Shown here: positions 1,349-20,391 of the stretch, one piece after another | Position numbering within the stretch: position 1 is the first letter of the stretch | Layout: every line of letters begins with the position of its first letter | NCBI RefSeq assembly: GCF_011050365.1 | Contig: NZ_DRFV01000016.1 | Span: forward strand, 69,549-109,548 | DNA: 40,000 nt | DNA from: Pseudohongiella sp. | GTDB taxonomy: Bacteria; Pseudomonadota; Gammaproteobacteria; Pseudomonadales; Pseudohongiellaceae | Direction: 5' to 3' | The notes under the pieces: model-generated | Told to the model about the DNA's origin: nothing | The model's database searches: none | The model's input: the letters and a program-made list of their open reading frames with translations, nothing else | Made by a program: the position numbers and the translations under genes

Positions 1349-1464
1349 AATCTCTGGTCAGTTGCGTTCATGAATCGATCCGCGAGCGTTGCGCGATTTC
1401 TCTGGCGTCATAGCGCCGGCACCGGGGAAAACGCCGTAGGCGAGCTCTCAGGGCCTCGGGCAAA

Positions 1465-3048: not shown

Positions 3049-3604
3049 CGATTTTTATCCCGAGGAATTTGGCGCGCACGCGCTCAAACTGCATATCCGA
3101 CAACCCGGCCTCAGCCTGGATCTCGCTGATCGCCTCGGCGGTTTTGCGCGCGAGCTCCTCACGCACTTTCTTGGCCCATTGCTTTTGTGGCAGGGACGCC
3201 CGGCTGATGTTGCCCAGGGCGCGGAACAGCATGGTGATTTCCTTCACGTTGATCTTCTGGTCCGGATCATCCGCATCGTACTGGTTCATCAGCTGGAAAA
3301 TCAGATCCTGGGCGAGCGCGACGTTGGCCATGCCCAGGGCATCGCCTTCATCGTCCATGGTCTCATTCAGCAGCTTTGCAGCTGCTGTACTGGAGCGGAT
3401 TTTCTCAATCCGGTCTTTCAGGGTTTTGCCGTAGATGCCCAGGCCCGACCGGCTGACCGTCAGCTCCAGCTCATGGGCTGCCAGCTTGCCATTGAGCTGC
3501 TCGGTCAACTCGTCATAGTTGCCAAAGGCGTTGGCCACAAGCTTGGAGTCAAGCCAGGCTTTCACCTCTGATGGCAGCTGCTGTATTTTGCTGACGGCCG
3601 GCAT
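3041..3604 (-). CDS. Mu gp27-like protein (DUF3486 type), putative terminase small subunit
   Basis: 187 aa. The N-terminus (MPAVSKIQQLPSEVKAWLDSKL...TVSRSGLGIYGK) resembles gp27/DUF3486 proteins as I recall them. It sits immediately upstream of TerL with overlapping stop/start. Confidence 0.6.
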   Translation of the reverse strand: MPAVSKIQQLPSEVKAWLDSKLVANAFGNYDELTEQLNGKLAAHELELTVSRSGLGIYGKTLKDRIEKIRSSTAAAKLLNETMDDEGDALGMANVALAQDLIFQLMNQYDADDPDQKINVKEITMLFRALGNISRASLPQKQWAKKVREELARKTAEAISEIQAEAGLSDMQFERVRAKFLGIKIDG

Positions 3605-3915
3605 CAGAAATCTTCCGGATGAGCAACACCCAGATGGCGATCGCCAAGGCCGTCCAGGAAGTCAACGCCATCGGCGCTGATCTTCGCCATCCAGCGATCG
3701 TCATTGCGAAGCGTGATGATCACCAGGCCACGCTCTGACAGGTAGTCCAGGGAGTTGCGGATGTTAAACTTGGTAAAGCTCAGATCCACATCGCCGCGCA
3801 GCACCTGCGCAATCAGGCCATCACCGATTGGCTCTGGCCTGTTCTGGGACAGCGCCTGCAGGATGCGTAATCGACGCAGCCGGTGCCTTTGAGTTTCCAT
3901 ATCATTGAGTCCCAT
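3604..3915 (-). CDS. Small phage protein, possible winged-helix fold (Mu gp26 position)
   Basis: 103-aa ORF with SD AGAGGAA 6 nt upstream of the ATG at 3915. Its stop shares one nt with the next start (TGATG). The function is only positional. Confidence 0.6.
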   Translation of the reverse strand: MGLNDMETQRHRLRRLRILQALSQNRPEPIGDGLIAQVLRGDVDLSFTKFNIRNSLDYLSERGLVIITLRNDDRWMAKISADGVDFLDGLGDRHLGVAHPEDF

Positions 3916-4342
3916 TTGTTGTTCCTCTGCTGCTGACCGCTTTGATCAGATCTTGGATTTCCCGGTTGAAGTCTTTGCGTAGCTCATCCACCTTGCGCTC
4001 AAGGTTGAGCGCATGCTCCAACCAATCATCTCGTTTGATGTACTCGCCAGCCACCTGCTCGCGGAACTCCTGCAGGCGTTTGTCGACATCGGAGATGCGC
4101 GCCTCCATCCGCTCTCGCGCTGTGGAAAACTCGCCTTTGTTCTCGCGCACCTGGCCAGCCAGCTGGCTCACCAGGTTCTGCAGGTTGTCATTCACCGTGC
4201 CCCAATACTCTTTTTGGCTTTTCGCCTCTTGCGCTTTCCTGCTCTCTTCGCGCATGAAAATCCATTTCAGAGCGCCGCCCATCCCAGCGATCATAAACAG
4301 GATGATCGGCACCGTAATTTTCAGGATGTCTACCAGCTCCAT
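3902..4342 (-). CDS. Membrane-anchored coiled-coil protein of the lysis cassette (i-spanin-like or DUF2730-like)
   Basis: 146 aa with an N-terminal TM helix (ILKITVPIILFMIAGMGGALKWIF) followed by a long charged helical region. The start overlaps the holin-like gene stop (TAATG). Confidence 0.55.
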   Translation of the reverse strand: MELVDILKITVPIILFMIAGMGGALKWIFMREESRKAQEAKSQKEYWGTVNDNLQNLVSQLAGQVRENKGEFSTARERMEARISDVDKRLQEFREQVAGEYIKRDDWLEHALNLERKVDELRKDFNREIQDLIKAVSSRGTTNGTQ

Positions 4343-4752
4343 TACTTAGTTTCCTTTGTGAAGAGGCCTTTAACGTGTGGTGCAATTTTCTCGCCGCTTC
4401 GCCCGACCACGTAACCGCCGATGCCGATCTTCAGTAGGTCCCATGCCTCGTCAGAAAGCCGGAACGCCAGGAAGCCAAAGGAGTCGCATACCACCAGGAC
4501 CAGGAAGGTGAGCATGGCGATCGGGCGCCAGGATCTTTGCAGCCAGCTTTCACCCTGGGCCTCGGCCATGATCACTTTGGCCTGTGACTCCAGGATCTTC
4601 GCCTCGTACTCCAGCACCTGGCCTGTAACGGTGTTCTGCAGATTCAGCATCTGCGCTCGAAGCTCCAGACGCTCACCATCGCTGGTGTGCATTTTGTCGA
4701 TCAGCGAGGTGACCGGCGTGATGGCATCTGCCAGGAATGAGAGGATCTTCAT
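4342..4752 (-). CDS. Holin-like membrane protein (resembles the GTA/DUF3154 3-TM holin type)
   Basis: 136 aa: helical N-terminal region, then a WRP motif and hydrophobic segments (SWRPIAMLTFLVLVVCDSFGFLAF; IGIGGYVVG). It lies directly downstream of the endolysin and overlaps it by 4 nt. Confidence 0.55.
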   Translation of the reverse strand: MKILSFLADAITPVTSLIDKMHTSDGERLELRAQMLNLQNTVTGQVLEYEAKILESQAKVIMAEAQGESWLQRSWRPIAMLTFLVLVVCDSFGFLAFRLSDEAWDLLKIGIGGYVVGRSGEKIAPHVKGLFTKETK

Positions 4753-5291
4753 GAGTAAGCCCTGTTTTTCCAGCCGTTGTGAAAGACGCCCTGGGTAGGA
4801 TCGGCAGCGATGATCAGCCGGTAATGTCCATAGGCTTCTGAGCGCATGGCAGCCAGCGGGTTGAGCTGATCACGGATATCGTTGATGGCGGCGAAGGTTT
4901 TGGAGCCCAGCAGGCCATCTTCAAGCACCGGTTTATTGCAAGCACGCAGCGCCCGTTGGATGATCTTCACGGCAGGTTTAGAGCGCATGTTGACCAACAG
5001 GTCAAAGGCTTTGATGGCCACCAGATCATGATTGATCTCGTCGAGCCGGTAGTAGTCCCAGAAGTGTTTGCGATACAAGCGGGCGACTTCACCAGGTGTC
5101 AGGGCGGTGATGTCTGCTTCGGTCACGTGGCCGTCGCCATCGATGTCGCCGTCCAGGTCGGGCAGACCTTTCAGAAAGCGCAGCGATATCCCATAGTCAG
5201 TCACGCCACCCCGGTCAGCCTTATGGTCAACCAGACGGCCCTCTTTTTTCAGGGTCTGCTGCAGTGCTGCGAGAAACGCGTTGGCGCTCAT
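4749..5291 (-). CDS. Endolysin, GH108-type muramidase with C-terminal peptidoglycan-binding region
   Basis: The N-terminal motif KKEGRLVDHKADRGGVTDYGIS matches the GH108 EGG...DxGG.TxxGI signature. ATG at 5291 with SD AGGAG upstream; the track's GVG-type start at 5303 has no SD. First gene of the leftward late/lysis operon. Confidence 0.8.
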   Translation of the reverse strand: MSANAFLAALQQTLKKEGRLVDHKADRGGVTDYGISLRFLKGLPDLDGDIDGDGHVTEADITALTPGEVARLYRKHFWDYYRLDEINHDLVAIKAFDLLVNMRSKPAVKIIQRALRACNKPVLEDGLLGSKTFAAINDIRDQLNPLAAMRSEAYGHYRLIIAADPTQGVFHNGWKNRAYS

Positions 5292-5383
5292 GGGTAGAAT
5301 CACTCCTATGTTGGAGTGATCCTAATCGCGCGGGGCGGGAGGAGGCTTTTAACCTAAGTTAGTAAATGGGGATAAAGCACAAA

Positions 5384-5743
5384 TCAGAAGGTGCCCGCAC
5401 GGAGCTTTACGTATGTTTTATTGTCGGACGACGCTAGAAACTTACGTCCATCGACGATTTTACCTATAAACGTGACTTCCTTTTTACGACCACCAAGTAG
5501 CAGGCCAGCCAAGAGTCCCACTGGACCCAAAGCCAGCGCACCAGCGGCACCCCATCCAACTGTCCCTGCCGCTTTCTTGACTGTCTCTTCAGTGGCGATC
5601 TCGAATTCAATATCACTGATTTTGATTTCTTCGGGCCAAAATTCACCATCCACTGGGAAGAGTATTTTCTCGTCTTTCACGCGAGCGGCGCCAAGTACGA
5701 ATGGCCCGGCGATAACCTTGATATTGCTCATTAGCGGTCTCAT
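5384..5743 (-). CDS. Small glycine-zipper membrane protein, unknown function; start uncertain (5743 or 5731)
   Basis: The ORF is co-oriented with the repressor gene and 55-67 nt downstream of it. It has a central GxxxG-rich TM segment (GTVGWGAAGALALGPVGLLAGLLLGG) flanked by two short beta-rich soluble segments. Confidence 0.55.
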   Translation of the reverse strand: MRPLMSNIKVIAGPFVLGAARVKDEKILFPVDGEFWPEEIKISDIEFEIATEETVKKAAGTVGWGAAGALALGPVGLLAGLLLGGRKKEVTFIGKIVDGRKFLASSDNKTYVKLRAGTF

Positions 5744-5798
5744 CGATGCGGGCTCACGGCGAAAAGCGCCCAATTAAATGTGGATTGCTCTCTCGTGC

Positions 5799-6320
5799 TC
5801 AGTCTTCTATTTCTACCATGATCAACGCATCAAGCACAGACCTTACTGTATCGACGCTTGGCGCAGTGCGGCTGTTGGACAGCGTTTTATTTTGATAAAT
5901 GATCGACACGGCCTTAGAAAACACCTTTGGCGGCAACGTCTCGTAGTCTTTGTTGTCTAGTATCACAGCCCAGATACCCTGCACAATTTTGTTCATCAGG
6001 TCCATATCGAGGTCTTTGCTGGTGGTGAGCGCGTATTTTGCACCATCCTCAGCAATATTAAGCAAGCTGCTTTCCGCTGTATCGATCTCATGCAGATTCT
6101 CGCTCCTGACCCCGGTTACGATGTATTGCACATCCGCACCTAGCCGTGCAATTCGCGCCAAATAATCTGCCGAAGGCGAACCGTTTCCCAGCTCGTACCT
6201 CGACTGCGAGTTCCTCGCCACGGCTCCTTGAGCCGCAAATTCAGGCTGCAGATAGCCTAGCCGTTCTCTTTCTTCCTTAATTCGGCCTGCTATTTCTACA
6301 ATTAACGTGATATTTTTCAT
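5799..6320 (-). CDS. Prophage repressor, XRE/Cro-CI-type HTH (Mu c analogue)
   Basis: N-terminal HTH (IAGRIKEERERLGYLQPEFAAQGAVARNSQSRYELGNGSPSADYLARIARLGADVQYIVTG). It is divergent from the Ner-like gene across a palindromic operator. I prefer the ATG at 6320, because the longer ORF start at 6359 would place the palindrome inside the coding sequence. Confidence 0.75.
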   Translation of the reverse strand: MKNITLIVEIAGRIKEERERLGYLQPEFAAQGAVARNSQSRYELGNGSPSADYLARIARLGADVQYIVTGVRSENLHEIDTAESSLLNIAEDGAKYALTTSKDLDMDLMNKIVQGIWAVILDNKDYETLPPKVFSKAVSIIYQNKTLSNSRTAPSVDTVRSVLDALIMVEIED

Positions 6321-6328
6321 TTTAATAT

Positions 6329-6358
6329 TGACTATTCTACAGTTTTGTAGAATAGTCA
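6329..6358. promoter_or_regulatory. Operator: perfect inverted repeat TGACTATTCTAC-N6-GTAGAATAGTCA with overlapping promoter-like hexamers
   Basis: The arms at 6329-6340 and 6347-6358 are exact reverse complements. On the plus strand, TTGACT (6328-6333), a 17-nt spacer and AATAGT (6351-6356) face the Ner-like gene. The symmetric hexamers face the repressor gene. Confidence 0.6.
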
Positions 6359-6424
6359 CCTTGTAAGTTTACTTTTATTACCCTGCTGCGAATCAGGGAA
6401 ATTACAAAACAGGAGTATAGCACC

Positions 6425-6709
6425 ATGAATACCGAGCGTATTCGAGAACTGCTTGGACAGCACGGCTATAGCTTGTCCCGCATAGCCAAGCTGCTCGATG
6501 TTCAACCATCCTATGTGTCCCTTGTAGTGGCGCGGAAGCGCAGAAACCACCGTGTAGCGATTGCCATTGCTACTGCCATTGAACGACCAGTCGACAGTGT
6601 CTTCCCCGACGTTCCGCTTTATCATGGCCCTCTTACAACTGCCGAGCAGCGTGATGCCGAGCTGGCCAGGCGCCTTCAATCTCAAGGCGTTATTCGGCGG
6701 TCCGCATAA
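6425..6709 (+). CDS. ner: Ner-like DNA-binding early regulator
   Basis: 94 aa. The HTH plus downstream IA.A...P....P pattern is collinear with Mu Ner / E. coli Nlp as I recall them. It is the first gene of the rightward early operon, with SD AGGAG upstream. Confidence 0.7.
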   Translation: MNTERIRELLGQHGYSLSRIAKLLDVQPSYVSLVVARKRRNHRVAIAIATAIERPVDSVFPDVPLYHGPLTTAEQRDAELARRLQSQGVIRRSA

Positions 6710-8007: not shown

Positions 8008-8967
8008 ATGGCAGCTGACGCAAATGAAAAACGCAAACCAGGGCGACCGAAGGAAACTGCAGCCGCAGAGAAAATCGGCCCTGAATTCGTTACAGAGACC
8101 CCGAAGGACATGCAACAGGCCGAAGCTGCCTGGCACGGGGAGCAAATTGAGCATGATCGGAACCTGGTGGTGATAGACAAGCAATACGGCGACAGCTTGC
8201 CTTACGACATAACACGCCTGGAGAACGAGACAAGATTCTATTTGGGTCAAAGTGCAGAATCCATGGTACAGGCCGGCAAGAGGCTCGTAGTAATCAAAGA
8301 GCACGAAGGCCACGGTCAGTTTTTGTCCTCGCTTCAACGAATCGGGCTGGAACCTCGCACAGCCCAGCTAATGATGAAAGCTTCCATCAAGTTTGGCACG
8401 GCAAATGCGAAATCGATTACGCATTTGGGCAGCACAAAGCTTTTTGCACTTCTGACCCAAGATGATGAAGATCTGGAAGCCCTCAGTGATGGTGGCACGG
8501 TTGCTGGCCTGAAGCTGGATGATATCGAAAAGATGTCAGTGCGGGAGCTTAAGGCAGCGCTGAGAGCTGAGCGCGAACTGCGCGCAGAGGATGCCGACGT
8601 GAAAGAGCGCCTACTGGCAAGCAAGGAGCAAAAGGTCAACCTTCTCGAAAGGGAACTTGATGAGCGAAAGCTGCGAGTCAAGAAGTGGGACGGGGTGGTT
8701 TCTGAAATCACTTCTAACGTCACCATCATGGCTGGTGGTGCCATCCAGCAAATAAATCACCTGCGCACACAGATCGAACAAATCCAGGAAGAATCCAAAA
8801 AGTTCGATCTCTCAAAACAGGAGATGGAAGCGATCGTCAAACCATTCGCTGATCACATCTCGACTCTGGGCGAATATTTCCGCGAGCTAGAAGCTGAGTT
8901 CGGACTCAACCTCTCAGTCTATATGCCAGCGCATGGTGGCAACTTTATTGAGCACTCTGAGGACTAA
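8008..8967 (+). CDS. DUF3102-like early protein with C-terminal coiled coil
   Basis: ATG at 8008 with SD TAGGAGAGA. The track ORF from 7846 overlaps the previous gene and looks like a false extension. Motif AGKRLVVIKEHEGHGQFLSSLQRIGLEPRTAQLMM is typical of DUF3102 proteins of Mu-like phages and plasmids. Confidence 0.6.
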   Translation: MAADANEKRKPGRPKETAAAEKIGPEFVTETPKDMQQAEAAWHGEQIEHDRNLVVIDKQYGDSLPYDITRLENETRFYLGQSAESMVQAGKRLVVIKEHEGHGQFLSSLQRIGLEPRTAQLMMKASIKFGTANAKSITHLGSTKLFALLTQDDEDLEALSDGGTVAGLKLDDIEKMSVRELKAALRAERELRAEDADVKERLLASKEQKVNLLERELDERKLRVKKWDGVVSEITSNVTIMAGGAIQQINHLRTQIEQIQEESKKFDLSKQEMEAIVKPFADHISTLGEYFRELEAEFGLNLSVYMPAHGGNFIEHSED

Positions 8968-8971
8968 AGGC

Positions 8972-10744
8972 ATGAACCAGCTAGCCACAGATATCATTCG
9001 TCAGCTGGCCATGAGGCTCGACACCGCGCCTCATGGCAGCAAACGTGCTGAGGTTGAACAGGTAGCTGAGGCGCTTGGCTGGTCACCGCACAAGGTCTAC
9101 GAGCACCTCAAAAAAGTCGGCTGGAGCTCAGGTCGTAAAAAACGCTCTGATGCCGGCACAACGACTGTGAGTGACCAGATGCTAAGTGATCTGGCAGCGG
9201 TGGTTGTAACCTCCATCAGAGCCAATGGCAAAGTCATCATGGATGTGCCCAATGCCCGCAGCATGCTGCAGGCGAACGGCCGTGATTTCGAAGTCAGCAA
9301 CGGCCACTTGAACCGGCTGTTGCGCAAAAGGCAGATGAACGCGCCAGCGCTCAAGCGGGCAACGCCTCACGTTCAAATGAAGTCGCTGCACCCAAACCAT
9401 GTGCACCAGGTAGACCCCTCGTACTGCGTGCTGTACTACCTGCCTGGTAAAAAAGGGCAGGATGTCCAGCGCTTCGCCAGTGACGATGAGTTCTACAAAA
9501 ACAAACCTCAGAATATCGAGCGCAACGCCTCACTTCGGGTGTGGCGATATGTGCTGACCGATCACTACTCAGGGACAGTGCTGGTGCGCTACTACCAGAG
9601 CGCTGGCGAGACGCAAGCCAACCTGTGGGACTTCCTGTTGTGGTGCTGGGCGAAGATGGCTGGCAGGCCGATGCACGGTGTCCCGACGCTGTTGATTTGG
9701 GACAAAGGCAGTGCCAACACGTCCTCTGCGATCAAGAATGCGCTGACGGCGCTGGATGTCAAAGATATCCCTCACAAGGCACACAACGCCCGCGTTAAAG
9801 GTCAGGTTGAAGGTGGCAACAACCTGGTGGAGAAGCTCTTTGAGAGCCGTTTGCGATTCCAGCCGGTGCATAGCGTCGATGAGCTTAATGAAGCCGCTGA
9901 GCGCTGGTCGACCGCCTTCAACGCAAATGCCATACCGTATTTTGACAGCCGTCTGGCTCGCGATGGGATGGCCCAGCCGCTTGCCCGTTTTGCGCTGTGG
10001 CAGACCATCCGTAAAGAGCAACTTCGAATACTGCCCGATATCGCCTTGTGCCGCACTTTGCTGGCCTCAGCGCCGCAGTCACGAGTGGTCAGTCAGGCCA
10101 TGACAATCAGCTTTAAACACCCGCAGGCTGACAGATCGCTGACCTATGATCTGCGTGGTCTGCCTGCTGTCCACCCTGGTGCAAAAGTGGACGTGTGTCC
10201 GCTGGTCTTTGGCGATCGGCAGGTGAAGGTGATTGCTACCGATTACAAGGATGAGAAGCACAGCTTCAGTGTGTCGCCGGTCGAGTTCAATGATCTGTCT
10301 GGCTTCCGTGTGGACGCGCCGGTCTGGGGCGAGGAGTTCCAGTCGATGCCGGACAGCGTTCAGGACGCCAATCGCAAAGACGCCATCCGCAATGCTTATC
10401 CGGAAAAAACGGATGAGGAAATCGAAAAGCTCAGGCGCAAAAACGTGGCGCCGTTCGGTGGCCTTGATGCGCACAGCCATCTGGGCAACGTGTACAAGCC
10501 TTCCTACATGCCGCGCCTGGGCACGGATATCGAACTTCCCAACACCAACACGATGGAAACCAGGCCGCTGTCGATCATCGAAGCCTGCAAACGCATTCGC
10601 TCCACCCTGGGCAGATCACTCTCGCCCGAGGAGAACCAGATCATCAGAGACCGGTACCCAAGTGGTGTGCCAGTGGATGAGTACGACCAGCTCGTTGAGC
10701 TGATTAATGGACCGCCGGAGGCGAAACTGGCCCTGGTGAAATAA
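8972..10744 (+). CDS. Transposase, DDE (DD35E) retroviral-integrase superfamily; MuA functional analogue
   Basis: 590 aa from the ATG at 8972. N-terminal HTH region. Catalytic candidates are D in HQVDPSY, D in LIWDKGS and E in KGQVEGG; I counted exactly 35 residues between the second D and E. Confidence 0.85.
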   Translation: MNQLATDIIRQLAMRLDTAPHGSKRAEVEQVAEALGWSPHKVYEHLKKVGWSSGRKKRSDAGTTTVSDQMLSDLAAVVVTSIRANGKVIMDVPNARSMLQANGRDFEVSNGHLNRLLRKRQMNAPALKRATPHVQMKSLHPNHVHQVDPSYCVLYYLPGKKGQDVQRFASDDEFYKNKPQNIERNASLRVWRYVLTDHYSGTVLVRYYQSAGETQANLWDFLLWCWAKMAGRPMHGVPTLLIWDKGSANTSSAIKNALTALDVKDIPHKAHNARVKGQVEGGNNLVEKLFESRLRFQPVHSVDELNEAAERWSTAFNANAIPYFDSRLARDGMAQPLARFALWQTIRKEQLRILPDIALCRTLLASAPQSRVVSQAMTISFKHPQADRSLTYDLRGLPAVHPGAKVDVCPLVFGDRQVKVIATDYKDEKHSFSVSPVEFNDLSGFRVDAPVWGEEFQSMPDSVQDANRKDAIRNAYPEKTDEEIEKLRRKNVAPFGGLDAHSHLGNVYKPSYMPRLGTDIELPNTNTMETRPLSIIEACKRIRSTLGRSLSPEENQIIRDRYPSGVPVDEYDQLVELINGPPEAKLALVK

Positions 10745-14789: not shown

Positions 14790-15270
14790 CGACATCGCCA
14801 TGATCAAGGTTGCCATCAAGCAGCTGGGCATCGCTGACGATGATGGCAACGAGGCTGCTGGCGTGCTGAGCACATACCGCCAGATGCTGATGTCAGTCAC
14901 CGGCAAAACCAGCGTCAGCGCCGATGCGATGACCGACCGTGAGCGCGCCAAGGTGCTGCGCCACCTGCGACAGCAGGGCTTCGTACCCAAGAGCACGAAG
15001 AAGCGGCCACGGCGCGTTGAGCGGGCACCAGGCATGCTATCCCAGGGAGAGCTGGGACTGATACATGTCCTGTGGCGTGCCCTGGAAGACGCCGGCGAGA
15101 TCAAGAGCCCAGGCAAAGAATCGTTGTGCGCCTGGGTGGAAAACTTTACCACTCAATTCAATAGTGGTAGAGGATACAGCGCACCTGAGTTCCTGCCGCA
15201 GTATGCGGCCGGAAAGGTGATAGAGCAGCTCAAGCAGTGGTGCCGACGCTGCCACATTGAATGGGAATAA
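14773..15270 (+). CDS. Mu gp16 / GemA-like protein (DUF1018)
   Basis: The N-terminus (DIAMIKVAIKQLGIADDD...YRQMLMSVTGKTS...MTDRERAKVLRHLRQQG) follows the DUF1018 pattern. It sits immediately before Mor, as in Mu-like phages. Confidence 0.7.
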   Translation: MANPRSDIAMIKVAIKQLGIADDDGNEAAGVLSTYRQMLMSVTGKTSVSADAMTDRERAKVLRHLRQQGFVPKSTKKRPRRVERAPGMLSQGELGLIHVLWRALEDAGEIKSPGKESLCAWVENFTTQFNSGRGYSAPEFLPQYAAGKVIEQLKQWCRRCHIEWE

Positions 15271-15284
15271 TGGAGAGTTCCGCG

Positions 15285-15635
15285 ATGTCAGTTCCTGAGA
15301 TCCAACAGGATGACGACATACTGATCGACTTACATCAGATCGCCGCGAGGCTGATCTGCAGCGACGGCGTGCCGGCCGAGCGTGCAGACGAGCTGGCCGG
15401 CCGCATCGCCCAGGAGATCCGATCGGCTTGGGGTGGGCAACAGATATACATCAAGAAAACCGACCTGGTGGAGCTGTCAGCCAGGAATCTGGATATCTAC
15501 AACGAGTTCAATGGTACCAACCACCACCAGCTGGCCAAAAAGCACGGCCTGGCTGTGCCTGTCATCTACCGCATCATCAAATCCGTGAAGCAGCAGGAGC
15601 GCGACAAGCGCCAGCACAAGCTTTTTCAGGAATGA
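15285..15635 (+). CDS. mor: Mor-family transcriptional activator (middle/late switch)
   Basis: The C-terminal HTH region (RNLDIYNEFNGTNHHQLAKKHGLAVPVIYRIIK) is typical of Mor/C family proteins. The best start is the ATG at 15285 (SD GGAGAG, 7 nt spacing); the track start is 15261. Confidence 0.8.
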   Translation: MSVPEIQQDDDILIDLHQIAARLICSDGVPAERADELAGRIAQEIRSAWGGQQIYIKKTDLVELSARNLDIYNEFNGTNHHQLAKKHGLAVPVIYRIIKSVKQQERDKRQHKLFQE

Positions 15636-15648
15636 ATTGACCGAGACA

Positions 15649-16578
15649 TCAGGAGTCGAGCTGGTTAGTCGTCAGCGAGAGCCTCCTTACCTGGCTTAGA
15701 TGTTTACGGTATAAGGCATCATCATCACCATCCAGCACCAGTGATATTTGCTCTAAGTTGCCAGGGCTCAAAAATCGCATGCCTATAGCCACAATACCCT
15801 CAGCGCGCTCTATCTTCCTTTCAAAACCTTGACACCATTCTGACCAATCCCGCAGACTACGGTGCTCCATGGTATCGATATCCAACTCAAGCAGTTCACG
15901 AAATTTGGCCTGAAGGTCGAGCACGAGCAGGTCCCGCAGATCGTTCTTTGAGTATAGAATTTCAATACCGGAGAGGGCCCCAACAACCTCTTCGACAATA
16001 TGCTCTTCGCTTGCTTTTCCAGCTCCCATCACCGAGGCCGTATCTCTTTCTTCCATGGTTGCCTGTCTGACACGAATGAGCTCGTGCCTCTGATCACGTA
16101 CCATTTTGGACAACAATTTCGCCACAGCATTTGGGCACCCTTTGCTCGGCGTGATCAGCGCCTGTACATTGCGATAGACCGCTGATCCTCCCTCATTTAG
16201 AACTTTGTCTAGCGACTCGCTATGGCGCTCTTCTTGCGAGAGGAATGATCCAACAATCTCCCTGTTGAGTTGAGCAGTCCTATCCCTTTCAAACACCTTG
16301 GTAAGCTGGTCGAACTCCACACCGAAATTGATTTTCCCACAGACAGTGCCAATGTTTGTCACAAGTCCCGTCTGAGTCGATACGACGTAACCTTTGTTGT
16401 GTGGCGTATGGCAATGGGATAGGCCGCAATGCTGCTTACTTGCAAAGACATACCTACCAATTATGGCCTCCAGAGCGTTATCTGTTGCATTCAGATTGTC
16501 AGTAAAGCCTGGTAAGGACTCAATTTCGTCCCACGACTCTACTTCTACAAACCCTCGTTCTGTACTTATCGTGATCAT
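15649..16578 (-). CDS. Orphan 309-aa protein with an N-terminal Cys/His cluster and a helical C-terminal two-thirds
   Basis: Long clean ORF with SD GAGGT 6 nt before the ATG at 16578. Cluster: HCGLSHCHTPHNKG...GTVCGK. It is in opposite orientation to the flanking phage genes, is AT-richer, and has no family that I recognise. Confidence 0.75.
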   Translation of the reverse strand: MITISTERGFVEVESWDEIESLPGFTDNLNATDNALEAIIGRYVFASKQHCGLSHCHTPHNKGYVVSTQTGLVTNIGTVCGKINFGVEFDQLTKVFERDRTAQLNREIVGSFLSQEERHSESLDKVLNEGGSAVYRNVQALITPSKGCPNAVAKLLSKMVRDQRHELIRVRQATMEERDTASVMGAGKASEEHIVEEVVGALSGIEILYSKNDLRDLLVLDLQAKFRELLELDIDTMEHRSLRDWSEWCQGFERKIERAEGIVAIGMRFLSPGNLEQISLVLDGDDDALYRKHLSQVRRLSLTTNQLDS

Positions 16579-16670
16579 CAAATTACCTCTGTGAGCTGGC
16601 TAGCGTTAAGGAAGTGAAATGATGATAGCACCCGTTTAAAAAGGTCGCTGACGAACTTAGAAAATTTAGG

Positions 16671-16697
16671 TCAAAAAATACCCGGCCGGAGCCGGGT
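16671..16697 (-). terminator. Rho-independent terminator on the minus strand
   Basis: The minus strand reads ACCCGGC-TCCG-GCCGGGT followed by ATTTTTTGA (7-bp GC stem, 4-nt loop, T6 run). It lies ~95 nt upstream of the 309-aa gene start. Confidence 0.55.
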
Positions 16698-16839
16698 CAA
16701 TGCTACAGCGTGCTTCCTGCTGGCGAATTTTGCGCTTTCTCTAAGTTTTATAGCAGCTGTGTGCACTTTTTTCTGAACTTTACTTTACGGTCCAATTGGT
16801 ATGTAGTGCAGACCACATACCACAGTTTGGAGAGAGACG

Positions 16840-17334
16840 ATGGCACGAAATATCCACGATATGGACGAAGATCTAAGTCGCTGGCAGGACAGCTACGCCG
16901 GACTCAGAATGGTGTTTCTAACCATTCCCGATACAATCTTAAAAGTGATCCAAAGTGGTAAGAGCAAGATTTCACAGGGTCACGCTTGTGCTTTCAGCGC
17001 TGCCGAAGTCACCCCGCAGCCGGAACGCGACGAGTTTAGGTTTCAATTCTTGTCCTGGCACTACTATTTTCAGTTTACCAGCGTTGTTAAGGCCGTCTCA
17101 GATGGATATAGCCTTGTCGGTAAAGTGACTGTGATGAAGAAATCCGTCCAGGCCACTGAAGATGAAGTAGGTGTCGATGTCGATGAATTCTATATCGACT
17201 CTCAAGGAGGCACTGTTGGCTGGAATGCCGGAAACCGTGACCTCACTGACAATTTCGGCGTTGAGGTGTTTCTTGTGGAGCTGCTACATAAAGAACTTGT
17301 CGCTGGCGCAAGAGCCGCAGAGGCCAACGCCTAG
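16840..17334 (+). CDS. Orphan 164-aa hypothetical protein
   Basis: ORF with SD GGAGAG 5 nt upstream of the ATG. The composition is protein-like, and I recognise no family. Confidence 0.7.
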   Translation: MARNIHDMDEDLSRWQDSYAGLRMVFLTIPDTILKVIQSGKSKISQGHACAFSAAEVTPQPERDEFRFQFLSWHYYFQFTSVVKAVSDGYSLVGKVTVMKKSVQATEDEVGVDVDEFYIDSQGGTVGWNAGNRDLTDNFGVEVFLVELLHKELVAGARAAEANA

Positions 17335-17374
17335 CCAGCCAGATGACCATAAGTGGCTGATCTACCTATTGGAT

Positions 17375-17449
17375 TATCCGGAAGTAGGGCACAGAGACGA
17401 GCTTGAGCCTGCCTCTGTGCCGGCAGCATGAGCTACGCATTTCCGGATA
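17375..17449. promoter_or_regulatory. Nested inverted repeats (two 9-bp stems) between the 164-aa gene and the rexA-like gene
   Basis: Outer arms: TATCCGGAA (17375-17383) / TTCCGGATA (17441-17449). Inner arms: GGCACAGAG (17388-17396) / CTCTGTGCC (17413-17421). No T-run follows, so it is not a canonical terminator. Confidence 0.5.
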
Positions 17450-17624
17450 TCAGTCACGCTTGACTGGACTTCGCTATTACCCAAATGGGTAGGTTGGCCA
17501 ATATTAGTTTCATTCTTGACAACAATATTTCATAATTGCGTTTGACCTTGATGACCTGCAGAGCTGGGACTTGCCCGGTTATATCTGCAGGCATTGCCAA
17601 TCATAAGAATAACGGAGGCAGTGG

Positions 17625-18578
17625 GTGAAGCTGAACTATTACGGGTACCTGGTAGAGAGACACTCCGACGAAGAGCAGTTCGTTTTCGACATCAACCCAC
17701 TCCTCAGCGCTTTTTACGAGCTGGATGCCCCTGAATTTAAGAGCCGATTCCACTATGGAGGTGAAAGCCTCTACCTAATCAGAATCCGTCAGAACGTATA
17801 TCTGTATCTGATGTCAAAATCCCAAGAGATTATCAAAAAAATCAAAGAGACCGATCTCACGGTCACCGGTATCTTCGATTTGCTCGAAGAGCATGAAAAA
17901 CTGGGGTTCGCGTCGTATTTGGTAGTTGGGGACGGCTATCTCGGTTTTGCATCGACCGTGCTTGCCCCCAAGGCTGTTTCATTCGGCAAGTTTATTAACG
18001 ATATTTTCGATTCTCTAGGCCTGGCCGATTACAAGTTCATCATGAGACCATTACTCCATGAAGCGACTGCAGCCGACGTGGTCCAGATGCCGATACATGG
18101 CAAAGCAATGATAGAGATCAACAACGCGAACACTATATTTAGGGAACTCCGAGATCTGTTTGGTGGTGATGTACAGGATTTCACTAATGTTGGCAGTATA
18201 GAGATTACGTTCAAGCCCCAATCACGAAAGAGTATTGACCCTGCTATCCGTAAAGTTATCGAGAATCTGCCCGCTGACGGGGTTGAACGATTTATGGTTC
18301 GAGCGAAAGAAAATGCGGCCGATCATCTGAGTGACATATTTATCACGGGGAAAGGAGCGATCTCCGACATGGTAAAAAAGGGCTCTGATCAAGAAGTATC
18401 GGAGAATATTAGGCTAGCAGTCCAAACCAACCAACTGCTTCAAGAAAAAGTCAATGAGCATGTGAATGATGCCAACACCCAACAAGCTACGCCTCAAGCT
18501 ATTAATGCTTATTTTCATGCTCCTGCCTGGGCCGCTGCTGTGGCTAGGTTACAGGTGCCTGACGACAATTTGGCCTAA
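17625..18578 (+). CDS. rexA: RexA-like protein (soluble component of a Rex-type abortive-infection/exclusion pair)
   Basis: GTG start preceded by GGAGG. It shows collinear similarity to lambda RexA as I recall it: EKLGFASYLVVGDGYLGFASTVLAP vs ESLGFPSFLFVEGDTIGFARTVFGP; YKFIMRPLLHEATAADVVQM vs ERVQIEPLMRGTTKDDVMHM; GSIEITFKPQSRKSI vs DSLDIVIKPKFKRDI. Confidence 0.75.
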   Translation: MKLNYYGYLVERHSDEEQFVFDINPLLSAFYELDAPEFKSRFHYGGESLYLIRIRQNVYLYLMSKSQEIIKKIKETDLTVTGIFDLLEEHEKLGFASYLVVGDGYLGFASTVLAPKAVSFGKFINDIFDSLGLADYKFIMRPLLHEATAADVVQMPIHGKAMIEINNANTIFRELRDLFGGDVQDFTNVGSIEITFKPQSRKSIDPAIRKVIENLPADGVERFMVRAKENAADHLSDIFITGKGAISDMVKKGSDQEVSENIRLAVQTNQLLQEKVNEHVNDANTQQATPQAINAYFHAPAWAAAVARLQVPDDNLA

Positions 18579-18954
18579 TATTGCATTGGGGCTGAGTGCA
18601 GAATCCAACTCCATAGCAGGCATTATTGCAGGCTTCTCCTTCACAATGCTCGGCTTTCTGGCTGCCGTGATTACGATCTTGTTTTCGGTATCAGGCAGCA
18701 AGTCGTATCAGCGGTACAGGAATGCTGGCAATTTGGAAGTGTTCTTTTTTATCTATTACCTGACTTTGGTATGTCTGGTGGTCACCGCTGGACTATCATT
18801 GGTAGCCCTTTCCTCGCTGTCGGAGCCTTGGGGAATAAAGGTTTTGTTGGGCTCTTTTGCAAACAACATTTTCCAGGTATTCGTGATCACGGTGATTATC
18901 TGTAATTTGGCAAGTAAGGGAGCGCCTAGAAACCCAGCGTCGCCGGCCTCCTAA
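18466..18954 (+). CDS. rexB: RexB-like 4-TM membrane protein; start uncertain (18466, 18505 or 18517)
   Basis: Four hydrophobic helices. The segment GLSAESNSIAGIIAGFSFTMLGFLAAVITILF...NLEVFFFIYYLTLVCLVVTAGLSLVALSS parallels lambda RexB (GLGATLSSYAGTMIAILIAALTFLIG...). The gene overlaps the 3' end of the rexA-like gene in another frame. Confidence 0.6.
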   Translation: MMPTPNKLRLKLLMLIFMLLPGPLLWLGYRCLTTIWPNIALGLSAESNSIAGIIAGFSFTMLGFLAAVITILFSVSGSKSYQRYRNAGNLEVFFFIYYLTLVCLVVTAGLSLVALSSLSEPWGIKVLLGSFANNIFQVFVITVIICNLASKGAPRNPASPAS

Positions 18955-19100
18955 GTAAAATAATTCGCTTTCATACCTGCTGGAACTAGTTTCACCCAGT
19001 GCAACTGGATTTCGATATCCTTCGTCCGGTATCATCCCGCTCCATCCCGATTCATCCAGTTATCGTGTTTTAGGCCGGTGGTTTATCTAGTTCGGGTTCA

Positions 19101-19290
19101 CACTGCCGAGTCGTCGGGGTGGGGTGCAGCTTGTGGAGCGTATGCGACCCTTGGACGGTCGCATCCGAGCCCCCCATGGATGGGTTCACGGGCGTCTCCT
19201 CAAGCTGCACCCCCACCACCGGCGACGCGACATTCGCCACCACCCGAGACCCGCACCCCCACGGCAGTGCCCTTATGGTGGGGCCGTAAA
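19101..19290. repeat. GC-rich REP-like nested palindromes upstream of lipA
   Basis: A 13-bp perfect stem (19121-19133 / 19201-19213, extendable after a 1-nt bulge) encloses an 8-bp hairpin (19142-19149 / 19157-19164). CACTGCCG (19101-19108) is complementary to CGGCAGTG (19262-19269). The motif GCACCCCCAC or its complement occurs three times. Confidence 0.5.
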
Positions 19291-19338: not shown

Positions 19339-20391
19339 ATGAGTCAGCAGCAACGCCCGCCTTCCATTCCCAGTGGCAGCAAATTCCGCAGCGAGCAGGG
19401 CTTCACCGCGATCAAGGATGGCGTGAAGAAATCGTCCGGTGCCGTGGAGCAGGCTGTGCCCGTGACGCGCAAGCCCAAGTGGCTGCGCGCACGCATGCCG
19501 GGTGGTGAGCGTTTTGAAGCAGTGAAGGCCAACGTGCGTGAGAACCGTCTGAGTACCGTTTGTGAAGAGTCGCATTGCCCGAATATTGGCGAGTGCTGGA
19601 ATAACGGGACTGCCACCATCATGGTCATGGGCTCGGTGTGCACACGCGCCTGCAAGTTTTGCGCAGTGGATACCGGCAACCCCGGCGGCTGGCTGGATGT
19701 GGACGAGCCTGAGCATGTGGCCAAATCAGTTGAGCTGATGGGGCTGCGGTATATCGTGCTGACCTCGGTGGACCGGGATGATCTGGACGATGGCGGCGCG
19801 GCGCATTACGCGGCCTGCGTGGCAGCCATCAAGGCGCGCACCCCGCAGGTGACGGTTGAGGCGCTGACGCCTGACTTCAGTGGCGACACGGAGGCAGTGG
19901 CCCGTGTCGTGGAGTCGGGGTTGGAAGTGTTTGCCCAGAACGTGGAAACCGTCAGGCGACTGACTCATCCGGTACGCGACCCGCGCGCGGGTTACCAGAA
20001 AACGCTGGATGTGTTGGCCTTTGCCAAGCAGCACCGTCCCAACGTGCTCACCAAAACCAGTCTGATGTTGGGGCTGGGTGAAACCGAAGAAGAAATTTTG
20101 CAGACCATGGATGATTTGCGTGCCATAGGGGTGGATATTCTGACTCTGGGGCAGTACCTGCAGCCGACGCGGAATCACCTGAAGGTGGAGCGGTTTGTCA
20201 GTCCGGAAGAATTTAACCGGTATCGGGAGCTGGGGCTGGCGAAGGGTTTTATGGAAGTGGCTGCCGGCCCGCTGGTGCGTTCCAGCTATCGGGCTGACCG
20301 GGTATTCGAGAAGAACAATCTGGGTATTCCGTTGCCGGCGCTGCCCGAGCTTGCGGTAGATGATAATCTCATTCCGCTGAAGGCTGTTTAA
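19339..20391 (+). CDS. lipA: Lipoyl synthase
   Basis: 350 aa. Radical-SAM motif [10 protein letters not shown], the N-terminal cluster [12 protein letters not shown], and end-to-end resemblance to LipA. Confidence 0.95.

What the first reader, a model, noticed from the sequence alone, without database searches (positions are those of the whole stretch)
15649..19100. AT-richer cargo island between Mor and the prophage end: a likely lysogen-expressed defence locus
Four genes sit between the last conserved early gene (Mor, ends 15635) and the inferred phage terminus (~19100). None belongs to the canonical Mu gene set. They are in mixed orientation and separated by unusually long, structured intergenic regions (259 and 290 bp).

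My hand counts of single 60-nt lines give about 42-50% GC here, against about 60% in the transposase gene. One pair is RexAB-like, which marks the island as an anti-phage/exclusion locus. The other two genes (309 aa and 164 aa) match nothing I recognise. They are the best candidates in this window for an undescribed system, either standalone or working with the Rex-like pair.
Basis: partly seen in the sequence, partly recalled or inferred. Interest (0 to 1): 0.75.

Follow-up and report, generated by a model that had tools for sequence, protein, structure and literature searches.

The report
Variable defence-cargo island at prophage end
A 3.45-kb AT-richer block of four accessory genes sits at the tip of a transposable prophage, in a slot that related prophages fill with other cargo; two genes are clear relatives of the lambda RexAB anti-phage system, and the other two are uncharacterised, one from a family widespread in enterobacterial prophages.

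Summary
Four genes lie between Mor (ends 15635) and the prophage right end, which three-way comparison puts at 19101. They are gA 15649-16578(-), gB 16840-17334(+), rexA 17625-18578(+) and rexB 18466-18954(+). Island GC is 47.7% against about 56% on both sides, lower than any equal-sized stretch elsewhere in the window.

The prophage has the B3-like layout, with an inverted early operon, not the Mu layout. In B3-like phage JBD67, Mor lies 245 bp from the genome end, so the island is an insertion at that junction.

The slot is a cargo hotspot. Related prophage arms carry RexAB, PD-Lambda-5, or unknown one- and two-gene sets.

RexA and RexB are members of their families by sequence. gA belongs to phrog_7003. 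It is a solitary gene that usually sits antisense inside lytic transcription units, for example between Q and the holin gene of Salmonella and E. coli prophages. It has an invariant CCHC motif and a confident model with no PDB or BFVD relative.

gB is a real but tiny family, seven members (one found only by context), all in this phage lineage. It is hypervariable behind a conserved promoter region.

The modules assort independently. Defence is well supported only for RexAB, and by homology alone. The kind of locus is known; gA is the best new lead.

The parts
15261..15635 (+). Mor, the last gene of the early operon and the left boundary of the island. It is convergent with gA, with a 13-bp gap and no terminator between them.
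   Evidence: Pfam Mor E=6.7e-27. No terminator-like site between Mor and gA. Sequence read.
15649..16578 (-). gA: a 309-aa solitary accessory protein of the phrog_7003 family. It has an N-terminal beta domain with an invariant C51/C56/H60/C80 motif, followed by a long helical bundle.
   Evidence: phrog_7003 E=1.4e-56. No Pfam, PADLOC or NCBIfam hit. 129 homologous clusters. Invariant columns in alignment A1. AF2 model pLDDT 88.3, pTM 0.74. No significant Foldseek hit in PDB or BFVD.
16672..16839 (+). Conserved upstream region of gB. It holds a minus-strand terminator-like hairpin (16680-16697, followed by a T-run on the minus strand), a putative extended -10 promoter (TTTACT 16779-16784, TGgTATGTA 16797-16805) and a GGAG ribosome-binding site. 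Its left edge is a mosaic breakpoint.
   Evidence: Alignment A3: the stretch is near-identical in the window, L001, L064, L065 and L067, although the gB proteins are only 32-41% identical. Terminator scan. Homology with L001 starts at 16672. The promoter assignment is inference from invariant columns.
16840..17334 (+). gB: a 164-aa acidic (pI 4.8) protein with a helix / six-strand sheet / helix fold. It is hypervariable and restricted to this phage lineage.
   Evidence: Five relatives among 1.84 billion cluster representatives, all 163-168 aa and full-length, plus one more in L079. AF2 model pLDDT 84.9, pTM 0.80. No PDB hit by fold or sequence. 25 substitutions in 495 nt against L001, compared with 2 in 954 nt for rexA. 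Identity to L064 drops from 93-100% to 45-60% at about 16790-16840. pI.
17388..17421 (+). Strong hairpin (9-bp perfect outer stem) 54 nt after the gB stop. It has no U-tract. It lies in the strongly folding left half of the 290-bp spacer.
   Evidence: Fold z = -4.65 for 17335-17624. Sequence read. Its function as a terminator or processing site is inferred.
17476..17624 (+). rexAB control region: perfect palindrome TACCCAAATGGGTA (17478-17491), putative promoter GTTTCA (17507-17512) / 18 nt / CATAAT (17531-17536), a leader hairpin, and a GGAGG ribosome-binding site before the GTG start.
   Evidence: These blocks are conserved between the window and L002 although the surrounding sequence differs. 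Homology with L002 resumes at 17476. Promoter and operator roles are inferred.
17625..18578 (+). rexA homologue, 317 aa.
   Evidence: Pfam PF15969 RexA E=1.2e-58, profile positions 1-234 of 235. PADLOC RexA E=1.2e-52. Lambda RexA structure 8TWQ matched by sequence, E=2.2e-19, residues 42-263.
18466..18954 (+). rexB homologue, 162 aa if it starts at 18466/18469 (alternative starts at 18505 and 18517). It has four hydrophobic segments and overlaps the rexA 3' end by 113 nt.
   Evidence: PADLOC RexB E=3.2e-17, profile positions 8-140 of 141. Kyte-Doolittle segments at about 8-30, 49-79, 87-120 and 126-153. The overlap and the N-terminus are conserved in L002.
18955..19101 (+). Right-end region of the prophage, ending ...TTATCTAGTTCGGGTTCAC. 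It presumably holds the transposase-binding sites.
   Evidence: Conserved in L001 (97.5%), L002, L064, L066, L067 and L079. Homology to L001 and L002 stops at 19101, with unrelated host DNA beyond.

Best explanation
The segment 15636-19101 is a horizontally acquired accessory island inserted between the terminal early gene (Mor) and the right end of a B3-like transposable prophage. The host is probably a Pseudohongiella-like gammaproteobacterium. In this phage lineage the junction is a cargo hotspot.

The island is a mosaic of three independently exchangeable modules.

1. **rexAB** is a two-gene operon with its own control region. By homology it works like lambda RexAB: a cytoplasmic DNA-binding sensor (RexA) activates a four-helix membrane protein (RexB) that damages or depolarises the membrane. 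The infected cell stops growing and the superinfecting phage is aborted.

2. **gA** is a solitary protein with a zinc-binding-type CCHC beta domain on a long helical bundle and no enzymatic motif. It is placed convergent to the early operon. I infer that it is made in the lysogen and silenced by read-through lytic transcription when the prophage is induced. Its most likely role is a binding-type (non-enzymatic) exclusion or defence factor.

3. **gB** is a small acidic protein behind a conserved promoter region. It is diversifying rapidly, is restricted to this phage lineage, and its role is unresolved: a specificity, immunity or counter-defence factor.

**Shown:** the anatomy, composition, boundaries, variability of the slot, and family memberships.

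**Inferred:** expression timing, the Rex mechanism in this host, and the functions of gA and gB.
For: **Island and hotspot**
- Composition and GC3 are distinct from both flanks.
- Homology to relatives breaks at 15625-15640, 16672, about 16800, 17476 and 19101.
- In B3-like phage JBD67 the gene order is identical (CII-like, A, B, DUF3164, GemA, Mor) but Mor lies 245 bp from the genome end. The literature describes B3-like phages as having an inverted early operon (PMC5977238).

**Cargo in the related arms**
- L001: 740 bp of unrelated DNA, then gB and RexAB.
- L002 (same as L009): gA, an unrelated 166-aa gene X, and RexAB.
- L064: gA, a gB allele 41% identical, a 295-aa gene Y and a 55-aa gene.
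- L066: gB plus an inverted pair of a 335-aa protein and a 216-aa membrane protein.
- L067: gB, SRAP, PAS-GGDEF-EAL and three more genes.
- L076: a 236-aa and a 229-aa protein plus PD-Lambda-5 A and B, E=2.8e-68 and 7.4e-111.
- L079-81: Mor, gB, reversed gA, a Y homologue, then the end, found in two host sites.

**RexAB**
- Sequence evidence.
- Mechanism from lambda RexA (PMC11077077) and P. putida RexAB (PMC12894663). In the latter, RexA binds DNA, and RexB causes growth arrest and membrane permeabilisation.

**gA**
- It is solitary in every context examined.
- In Salmonella and E. coli lambdoid prophages it sits between Q and the holin or nanS-like gene, on the strand opposite to late transcription.
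- It lies next to stxA in phage phi467 and next to cI in Klebsiella and Pseudomonas phages.
- It is also carried as Tn3 cargo and on a plasmid.
- In the window it is convergent with Mor, 13 bp away, with no terminator between them.

**gB is a real gene**
- Full-length homologues of 163-169 aa.
- A ribosome-binding site conserved in all of them.
- A coding-type GC1 > GC3 > GC2 pattern.
- A confident structure model.
Against: - There are no expression data, so 'lysogen-expressed' rests only on gene orientation and predicted promoters. The consensus promoter scan reported none of the promoters I propose.
- RexAB here is not next to the repressor gene as it is in lambda; the repressor is at 5799-6319, about 11 kb away.
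- Lambda RexA also biases the lysis-lysogeny switch, so defence need not be its only role.
- gA and gB have no PADLOC hit and no structural relative. Their link to defence is guilt by association.
- In the cI-adjacent contexts, the position of the lytic promoter relative to gA is unknown, so the antisense-silencing pattern is not universal.
- The hotspot sample is small: nine independent arms, several from short contigs.
Confidence: 0.72

Rival explanations
1. All four genes form one system: gA and gB are accessory sensors or regulators of the RexAB effector pair.
For: - The genes are physically adjacent.
- gB sits directly upstream of rexA in the window and in L001.
- gB is acidic and RexA is a DNA-binding protein, so a DNA-mimic regulator is conceivable.
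Against: - RexAB occurs without gB in L002/L009 and without gA in L001.
- gA and gB occur with Y instead of RexAB in L064 and L079.
- gA is solitary in lambdoid prophages, in Tn3 and on plasmids.
- Mosaic breakpoints separate the modules.
Confidence: 0.06
2. gB is not host defence. It is a phage-side factor, either counter-defence or self-immunity (analogous to anti-Tab or to anti-CRISPR genes behind a conserved strong promoter), and it is expressed early in lytic growth.
For: - Every known family member lies in the Mor-proximal arm of this one phage lineage.
- In L079-81 it follows Mor by 66 nt on the same strand, inside the early operon.
- It is small and acidic, and highly diversified (32-41% identity) behind a near-identical promoter region.
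- Against L001, 15 nonsynonymous and 10 synonymous substitutions are concentrated in gB.
- It co-occurs with gA in 4 of the 5 gA-bearing arms.
- Tab and anti-Tab provide a precedent (PMC10884400).
Against: - gA is 96% identical between the window and L064 while gB is only 41% identical. That is not what a specific gA-gB binding pair would show.
- gB occurs without gA (L001, L067).
- In the window it has its own promoter region and lies outside the early operon.
- There is no structural or sequence link to any known anti-defence protein.
Confidence: 0.3
3. The RexAB homologues mainly serve the prophage's own lysis-lysogeny decision, or stabilise phage or host proteins, rather than excluding other phages.
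For: - Lambda RexA binds DNA non-specifically and biases the bistable switch towards lysis independently of RexB (PMC11077077).
- A conserved palindrome upstream of rexA suggests regulated expression.
Against: - The intact RexA plus four-TM RexB pair is conserved at almost 100% between the window and L001.
- The same slot carries PD-Lambda-5 in a relative.
- RexAB homologues tested in E. coli, actinobacteriophages and P. putida all exclude phages.
- The two roles are not mutually exclusive.
Confidence: 0.12
4. gA is a lysogenic-conversion or virulence-type moron, or an anti-defence protein, unrelated to phage exclusion.
For: - In E. coli prophages it occupies the Q-to-lysis slot where stx genes sit in Stx phages, and it lies next to stxA in phi467.
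- It has no PADLOC hit.
- It is also carried by Tn3 and by a plasmid.
Against: - It has no signal peptide and no transmembrane segment in the sequence, so it is cytoplasmic.
- It occurs in free-living marine bacteria as well as in enteric ones.
- Here and in L079 it lies in a slot whose identifiable cargo is defence.
- Being placed antisense to lytic transcription fits a product harmful to phage growth.
Confidence: 0.25
5. The island is decaying junk, and gB is a chance ORF.
For: - Substitutions between the two gB alleles fall almost evenly across codon positions (9, 6 and 10), with dN/dS of about 0.5.
- The family is tiny.
Against: - Seven full-length homologues of conserved length, with 18 invariant residues.
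- A conserved ribosome-binding site.
- A confident fold prediction.
- No frameshift or stop codon in any copy.
- rexAB is under strong purifying selection: 2 synonymous changes in 1,330 nt.
Confidence: 0.03

Closest known systems
Phage lambda RexA/RexB exclusion system (structure 8TWQ; PMC11077077) and the P. putida prophage RexAB (PMC12894663)
   Same: - A two-gene operon in the order rexA then rexB.
- RexA matches the RexA Pfam and PADLOC models over their full length, and matches lambda RexA at E=2e-19.
- RexB matches the PADLOC RexB model and has four hydrophobic helices.
- It is carried by a prophage.
   Different: - Only about 25% identity to lambda RexA, with a roughly 50-aa C-terminal extension.
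- rexB overlaps rexA by 113 nt.
- It is not adjacent to the repressor or transcribed with it. It sits at the genome end of a transposable (B3-like) phage, with its own control region.
- All 19 RexA-bearing isolated phages in the phage collection appear to be lambda or lambdoid phages; none is a recognisable transposable phage.
Prophage and satellite defence hotspots (P2/P4 hotspots, PMC9122126; accessory regions of Pseudomonas Mu-like phages, PMC4378225)
   Same: A fixed junction between conserved phage features, filled with different, mostly AT-richer, one- to few-gene cargo in close relatives. The cargo includes known defence systems (RexAB, PD-Lambda-5).
   Different: - The location is different: between Mor and the transposon-type right end of B3-like phages.
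- The hosts are marine Pseudohongiella.
- Most of the cargo has no match to any known system.
B3-like transposable phages (Beetrevirus, e.g. JBD67)
   Same: - Inverted early operon.
- The same order: CII-like, A, B, DUF3164, GemA, Mor, end.
- Transposase 35% identical.
   Different: - JBD67 has no genes between Mor and the end (245 bp).
- The window prophage has 3.45 kb of cargo there.
BstA (prophage abortive-infection protein with cognate self-immunity, PMC8585504) and Tab/anti-Tab (PMC10884400)
   Same: What gA resembles in lifestyle: a single prophage-borne gene of about 300 aa with its own promoter, often near the immunity region or antisense in a lytic operon, whose activity must be neutralised when the prophage itself goes lytic.
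   Different: - gA has no sequence match to any PADLOC-DB model. From recollection, PADLOC-DB includes a BstA model; I did not check the model list or run a positive control.
- gA has no KilA-N Pfam hit.
- The gA fold is different: a CCHC beta domain plus a helical bundle.
- No self-immunity element has been identified.
PHROG family phrog_7003 (unknown function)
   Same: gA matches it over its full length (E=1.4e-56, residues 2-285 against profile positions 1-289 of 309).
   Different: The family has no assigned function, so membership names gA but does not explain it.

Membership tests
RexAB (lambda-type exclusion system) | The RexA protein matches the RexA family model above its curated threshold. 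| tested here: met
   PF15969 at 198.9 bits against a cut-off of 25, E=1.2e-58, profile positions 1-234 of 235. PADLOC RexA E=1.2e-52. Lambda RexA 8TWQ E=2.2e-19.
RexAB (lambda-type exclusion system) | A RexB partner: a small polytopic membrane protein (four TM helices) encoded immediately after rexA. | tested here: met
   PADLOC RexB E=3.2e-17, profile positions 8-140 of 141. Four hydrophobic segments. The gene overlaps the rexA 3' end.
RexAB (lambda-type exclusion system) | Located in the immunity region and co-transcribed with the repressor in the lysogen. | tested here: not met
   The repressor-like HTH gene is at 5799-6319, and rexAB is 11 kb away at the opposite end of the early operon. 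Rex genes are also inverted or relocated in some actinophages, so this is a lambda-specific feature rather than a strict criterion.
RexAB (lambda-type exclusion system) | RexA binds DNA and activates RexB; membrane depolarisation or damage follows and other phages are excluded. | not testable with these tools
   Needs EMSA, toxicity and plaque assays of the kind run for P. putida RexAB.
Prophage cargo/defence hotspot | The same junction, flanked by conserved phage features, carries different gene sets in related elements. | tested here: met
   Nine related arms with at least six different cargo sets between Mor and a conserved right-end sequence. The JBD67 junction is empty.
Prophage cargo/defence hotspot | The cargo includes recognised anti-phage systems. 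| tested here: met
   RexAB in three distinct arms (the window, L001, L002; L009 is the same element as L002). PD-Lambda-5 A and B in L076. Other cargo (gA, gB, X, Y, the 335-aa plus 216-aa pair) has no PADLOC hit.
phrog_7003 | Full-length match to the family profile. | tested here: met
   E=1.4e-56, residues 2-285 against profile positions 1-289 of 309.
BstA | Match to the BstA model and an N-terminal KilA-N domain. | tested here: not met
   No PADLOC family at E<=1 and no Pfam family at E<=0.1 for gA. That PADLOC-DB contains a BstA model is from recollection, not checked here.
Diversity-generating retroelement target (considered for gB hypervariability) | Adenine-specific substitutions relative to a template repeat, with a nearby reverse transcriptase. 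| tested here: not met
   The 25 substitutions against L001 involve all four bases with no adenine bias. None of the ORFs scanned in or flanking the island matched a reverse transcriptase. The pattern fits allele replacement by recombination.
B3-like (Beetrevirus-type) transposable phage | A DDE transposase A plus AAA+ B, DUF3164, GemA and Mor in an early operon directed towards a genome end, with late genes divergent. | tested here: met
   Pfam hits for rve, AAA_22, DUF3164, GemA and Mor on the plus strand. Terminase, Mu gp27, holin and GH108 endolysin are on the minus strand. Transposase 35-44% identical to Pseudomonas transposable phages. JBD67 gene map.

The most novel reading that the evidence does not exclude
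gA (phrog_7003) is a new single-protein prophage defence with a fold not represented in the PDB. A zinc-binding CCHC beta domain senses a component of an invading phage, and the helical bundle blocks that phage's development by binding rather than by catalysis.

The prophage gets self-immunity from gene placement. gA lies antisense inside a lytic transcription unit (after Mor here, between Q and the lysis genes in enterobacterial prophages), so induction shuts it off.

gB would be a second new element: a lineage-specific, rapidly diversifying specificity or counter-defence protein driven by a conserved promoter cassette that also serves as the recombination handle for swapping cargo.
Probability: 0.25. 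Interest if true: 0.65.

Novelty: new member of a known kind. Interest (0 to 1): 0.5.

Why it matters
**A new place to look for defence genes.** The Mor-to-end junction of B3-like transposable phages behaves as a defence and cargo hotspot. That gives a simple anchor (Mor plus the conserved end sequence) for harvesting candidate systems from poorly studied marine bacteria. Most cargo found there (gA, gB, X, Y, the 335-aa plus 216-aa membrane pair, and the 236-aa and 229-aa proteins) matches nothing in PADLOC.

**gA is immediately testable in model organisms.** The family is common in Salmonella, Enterobacter, Citrobacter and E. coli prophages, where it occupies the slot that holds Shiga toxin genes in Stx phages. 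It has a confident structural model with no known relative.

**RexAB context.** As far as the collections searched here show, this also extends RexAB from lambdoid and actinobacterial phages to a transposable phage.

Tried and rejected
**Function of gA and gB by sequence.** Pfam, PADLOC and NCBIfam gave nothing. PHROGs gave only an unnamed family for gA. PDB profile searches gave nothing.

**Left end of the prophage.** A search for an inverted repeat of the right end found nothing in the window. The left end is off-window because the late genes run off position 1.

**gB and X as homologues.** BLASTP E=0.99 and hhalign probability 0.8%, so rejected.

**DGR-type mutagenesis of gB.** Rejected.

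**Known RNA families in the long spacers.** None found.

**More copies of the conserved gB-upstream element.** None in viral contigs.

**Remnant of gA in the L001 replacement segment.** No similarity by blastn or tblastx.

**Literature.** No paper mentions phrog_7003.

**More relatives through Mor in viral contigs.** Only distant Mu-like phages (<=49% identity) were found, and they were not analysed further.

Full report
**1. What is in the sequence**

Between Mor (15261-15635; Pfam Mor E=6.7e-27) and the host gene lipA (19339-20391) there are four well-formed ORFs.

- gA, 15649-16578(-), 309 aa from the ATG that matches the homologues' N-termini.
- gB, 16840-17334(+), 164 aa.
- rexA, 17625-18578(+), 317 aa.
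- rexB, 18466-18954(+), 162 aa.

All four have Shine-Dalgarno sequences. The spacers are 258-261 bp and 290 bp. Mor and gA are convergent and 13 bp apart, with no terminator-like site between them.

Island GC is 0.477, against 0.561 for the rest of the prophage and 0.565 for the host flank. No equal-sized stretch elsewhere in the window falls below 0.521. GC3 of the four genes is 0.51-0.59, against 0.64-0.74 for core genes.

The 'structured spacers' remark holds well only for the second spacer (fold z = -4.65). The first spacer has z = -1.0 but contains a strong minus-strand terminator-like hairpin at 16680-16697.

**2. What the surrounding element is**

The early operon on the plus strand contains:
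- a Ner-like HTH gene and a CII-like regulator;
- a DDE transposase (8933-10744) and an AAA+ B protein;
- DUF3164, an HTH protein, GemA and Mor.

The late genes lie on the minus strand, to the left of the repressor, and run off the left edge of the window. They include the large terminase, a Mu gp27-like gene, a 3-TM holin and a GH108 endolysin.

[quoted passage not shown] The transposase is 35-44% identical to those of Pseudomonas transposable phages.

In the B3-like phage JBD67 the order is the same: CII-like, A, B, DUF3164, Gam, GemA, Mor. There, Mor is the terminal gene, 245 bp from the genome end. The window's 3.45 kb between Mor and the end is therefore an insertion relative to the basic plan.

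**3. The end and the hotspot**

Two related prophages, each in a different host site, lose homology to the window at exactly 19101. They are L001 from Pseudohongiella acticola and L002, a metagenome contig that is the same element as IMG/VR contig L009. All end in ...TTATCTAG(T/-)...TTCAC. The same end sequence is recognisable in L064, L066, L067 and L079, so these are all right arms of one phage lineage.

Their cargo between Mor and the end differs each time.

| Arm | Cargo between Mor and the end |
|---|---|
| window | gA, gB, RexAB |
| L001 | 740 bp of unrelated DNA, gB (91% aa identity), RexAB (identical protein) |
| L002/L009 | gA (75%), unrelated 166-aa X on the other strand, RexAB (about 80%) |
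| L064 | gA (96%), gB allele (41%), Y (295 aa with a central hydrophobic helix), a 55-aa gene |
| L065 | gA, another gB allele (35%), partial gene |
| L066 | gB, plus an inverted pair: 335-aa protein and 216-aa polytopic membrane protein |
| L067 | gB, SRAP, a 985-aa PAS-GGDEF-EAL protein, three more genes |
| L076 (Pseudohongiella MAG, Mor 77%) | 236-aa membrane protein, 229-aa protein, PD-Lambda-5 A and B (PADLOC E=2.8e-68 and 7.4e-111) |
| L079-81 | Mor, gB, reversed gA, Y homologue, end; found in two host sites |

This is the behaviour of a cargo hotspot, and the identifiable cargo is anti-phage defence. That is not the case, so the interpretation survives the test.

**4. The island is a mosaic of three modules**

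Homology breakpoints fall at the following positions:
- the Mor stop;
- 16672, where L001 joins;
- about 16790-16840, where identity to L064 drops from 93-100% to 45-60%;
- 17476, where L002 rejoins;
- 19101, the prophage end.

**5. rexAB**

RexA matches Pfam PF15969 over the whole model (E=1.2e-58), PADLOC RexA (1.2e-52), and the crystallised lambda RexA, 8TWQ (E=2.2e-19, about 25% identity).

RexB matches PADLOC RexB (E=3.2e-17) and has four hydrophobic segments. The rexB frame overlaps the rexA 3' end by 113 nt, and the overlap is conserved in L002.

Upstream, the blocks conserved between the window and L002 are:
- a perfect palindrome, TACCCAAATGGGTA (17478-17491);
- a GTTTCA / 18 nt / CATAAT promoter-like pair (17507-17536);
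- the ribosome-binding site and start codon.

I read these as an independent, possibly regulated, promoter. That is inference: the generic consensus scan did not call it.

Between the window and L001, rexAB carries 2 synonymous changes in 1,330 nt, which indicates strong constraint or very recent common ancestry.

The mechanism by homology is as follows. RexA is a dimeric, non-specific DNA-binding protein (PMC11077077). In P. putida, RexA overproduction triggers RexB-dependent growth arrest and membrane permeabilisation, and the pair excludes phages (PMC12894663).

The departure from lambda is context. The pair is not beside the repressor but at the tip of a transposable phage. None of the 19 isolated phages with a RexA match is a recognisable transposable phage.

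**6. gA**

gA has no Pfam, PADLOC or NCBIfam hit, but it is a full-length member of phrog_7003, a family of unknown function (E=1.4e-56).

A profile search finds 129 clusters of uniform length, about 300 aa. All are annotated 'hypothetical', none is fused to another domain, and many come from Salmonella, Enterobacter, E. coli, Citrobacter and Pectobacterium.

Invariant residues are concentrated in the first 90 aa: W16, G41, Y43, C51, C56, H60, G63, N75, G77, C80, G81, F85 and F89. This is a CCHC metal-site pattern. R215 is also invariant.

The AlphaFold model is confident (pLDDT 88.3, pTM 0.74). It shows a small beta domain followed by long paired helices with a beta-hairpin insertion. Foldseek finds nothing significant in the PDB or BFVD, and a PDB sequence-profile search also finds nothing.

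The context is informative. gA is always solitary.
- In Salmonella and E. coli lambdoid prophages it lies between the Q antiterminator and the holin or nanS-like gene, on the strand opposite to late transcription. This is the slot that holds stx in Stx phages.
- In phage phi467 a split copy lies next to stxA.
- In a Klebsiella phage and a Pseudomonas phage it lies beside cI.
- It is also cargo of a Tn3-family transposon and of a plasmid.

In the window it is convergent with the early operon. I infer that it is a moron expressed in the lysogen and shut down by convergent lytic transcription. That placement makes sense for a product harmful to phage development. The lack of any catalytic motif points to action by binding. 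This remains inference, and a conversion or anti-defence role is not excluded.

**7. gB**

The word-indexed search found one relative, 91% identical, in P. acticola. The exhaustive HMMER scan of 1.84 billion representatives found four more, at 32-41% identity. L079 adds a seventh member.

All are 163-169 aa and acidic (pI about 5), with 18 invariant residues. All lie in this phage lineage's Mor-proximal arm.

The model is confident (pLDDT 84.9, pTM 0.80). It shows a long N-terminal helix, a six-stranded antiparallel sheet and a long C-terminal helix. It has no significant PDB neighbour.

Two features stand out.

First, the ~170 nt upstream is almost identical in five loci whose gB proteins are only 32-41% identical. 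That stretch holds the hairpin, the promoter-like CTTTACT...TGgTATGTA, and GGAG.

Second, between the window and L001 the gene carries 25 substitutions in 495 nt (15 nonsynonymous, 10 synonymous, none adenine-biased). The flanking spacers are about 1% diverged and rexAB about 0.15%.

This pattern fits allele replacement by recombination at a conserved regulatory 'handle', followed by rapid diversification. It does not fit a DGR.

gB is found with gA in four arms, without it in at least two (L001, L067), and in swapped order in L079. There it follows Mor by 66 nt inside the early operon. Its role is unresolved. A phage-side specificity, immunity or counter-defence factor is as likely as a host-defence gene.

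**8. Comparison with what is known, and verdict**

The locus as a whole is a new example of a known kind of feature, a prophage-borne defence and cargo hotspot like the P2/P4 hotspots, placed at a junction not previously highlighted.

- RexAB are new members of a known family in an unusual phage context.
- gA is a member of an existing but uncharacterised family with an apparently unrepresented fold, and it is the best candidate for something new.
- gB is a tiny, lineage-restricted, hypervariable family.

The evidence argues against a single four-gene system. Nothing here demonstrates expression in the lysogen or any phenotype.

Interest is moderate. A specialist would not be surprised by the concept. 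The hotspot anchor and the gA family are nonetheless concrete, cheap-to-test leads.

Noticed in passing
window 1-6400: The prophage has the B3-like divergent layout. The late genes are on the minus strand and run off the left edge of the window: large terminase 1465-3048, Mu gp27-like 3041-3604, 3-TM holin 4342-4752, GH108 endolysin 4749-5303. The left prophage end is therefore not in the window.
   Followed up: partly
window 5384-6500: A second lower-GC patch (0.47-0.50) covers the immunity region. It contains an HTH repressor-like gene (5799-6319, minus strand) and a 129-aa gene (5384-5773, minus strand) that matches only PHROGs of unknown function. This may be another accessory slot beside the repressor.
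   Followed up: no
window 18466-18578: The rexB reading frame overlaps the last 113 nt of rexA in a different frame. Both the RexA tail and the RexB N-terminus are conserved in L002, so the overlap looks real rather than a start-codon artefact.
   Followed up: partly
window 17478-17491: A perfect 14-nt palindrome, TACCCAAATGGGTA, lies about 15 nt upstream of the putative rexA -35 element. It is conserved in L002 although the neighbouring sequence diverges. It is a candidate operator for an unknown regulator.
   Followed up: no
window 17335-17475: The stretch after gB folds unusually well: z = -4.65 for the whole 290-nt spacer, with a 9-bp perfect-stem hairpin at 17388-17421 that lacks a U-tract. 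No Rfam family matches it.
   Followed up: partly
window 19121-19213: Just outside the prophage end, upstream of lipA, an 18-nt inverted repeat (19121-19138 / 19196-19213, 94% complementary) overlaps a weak Rfam match to Ysr224 (E=0.67, far below the gathering score). It is probably a host regulatory or REP-like hairpin.
   Followed up: no
L079 6944-9587 (also L080, L081): A related prophage found in two different host sites carries the same modules in a different order: Mor, gB, reversed gA, a Y homologue, then the end. gA and gB are therefore shuffled as separate cassettes.
   Followed up: yes
L067 1927-8006: Inside the phage arm of one relative, the cargo includes an SRAP-domain protein and a 985-aa PAS-GGDEF-EAL protein (c-di-GMP signalling). 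Not all cargo in the slot looks like defence.
   Followed up: no
L066 1018-2672 and L064 2228-3306 / L079 6944-7834: Recurrent unknown cargo in the same slot: a 335-aa protein overlapping a 216-aa polytopic membrane protein (a sensor-plus-membrane-effector layout like RexAB, but unrelated in sequence), and the Y family (about 295 aa with a central hydrophobic helix), seen in two relatives. None has a PADLOC or Pfam hit.
   Followed up: partly
L008 4004-4878 (Escherichia phage phi467): The gA homologue next to stxA in this Stx phage is split into two overlapping ORFs. It is probably a frameshifted pseudogene.
   Followed up: no
L001 9096-9833: In P. acticola the gA position is occupied by 737 bp with no similarity to any fetched locus and no ORF over 78 aa. 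It begins with a hairpin right after Mor. Its nature is unknown.
   Followed up: partly
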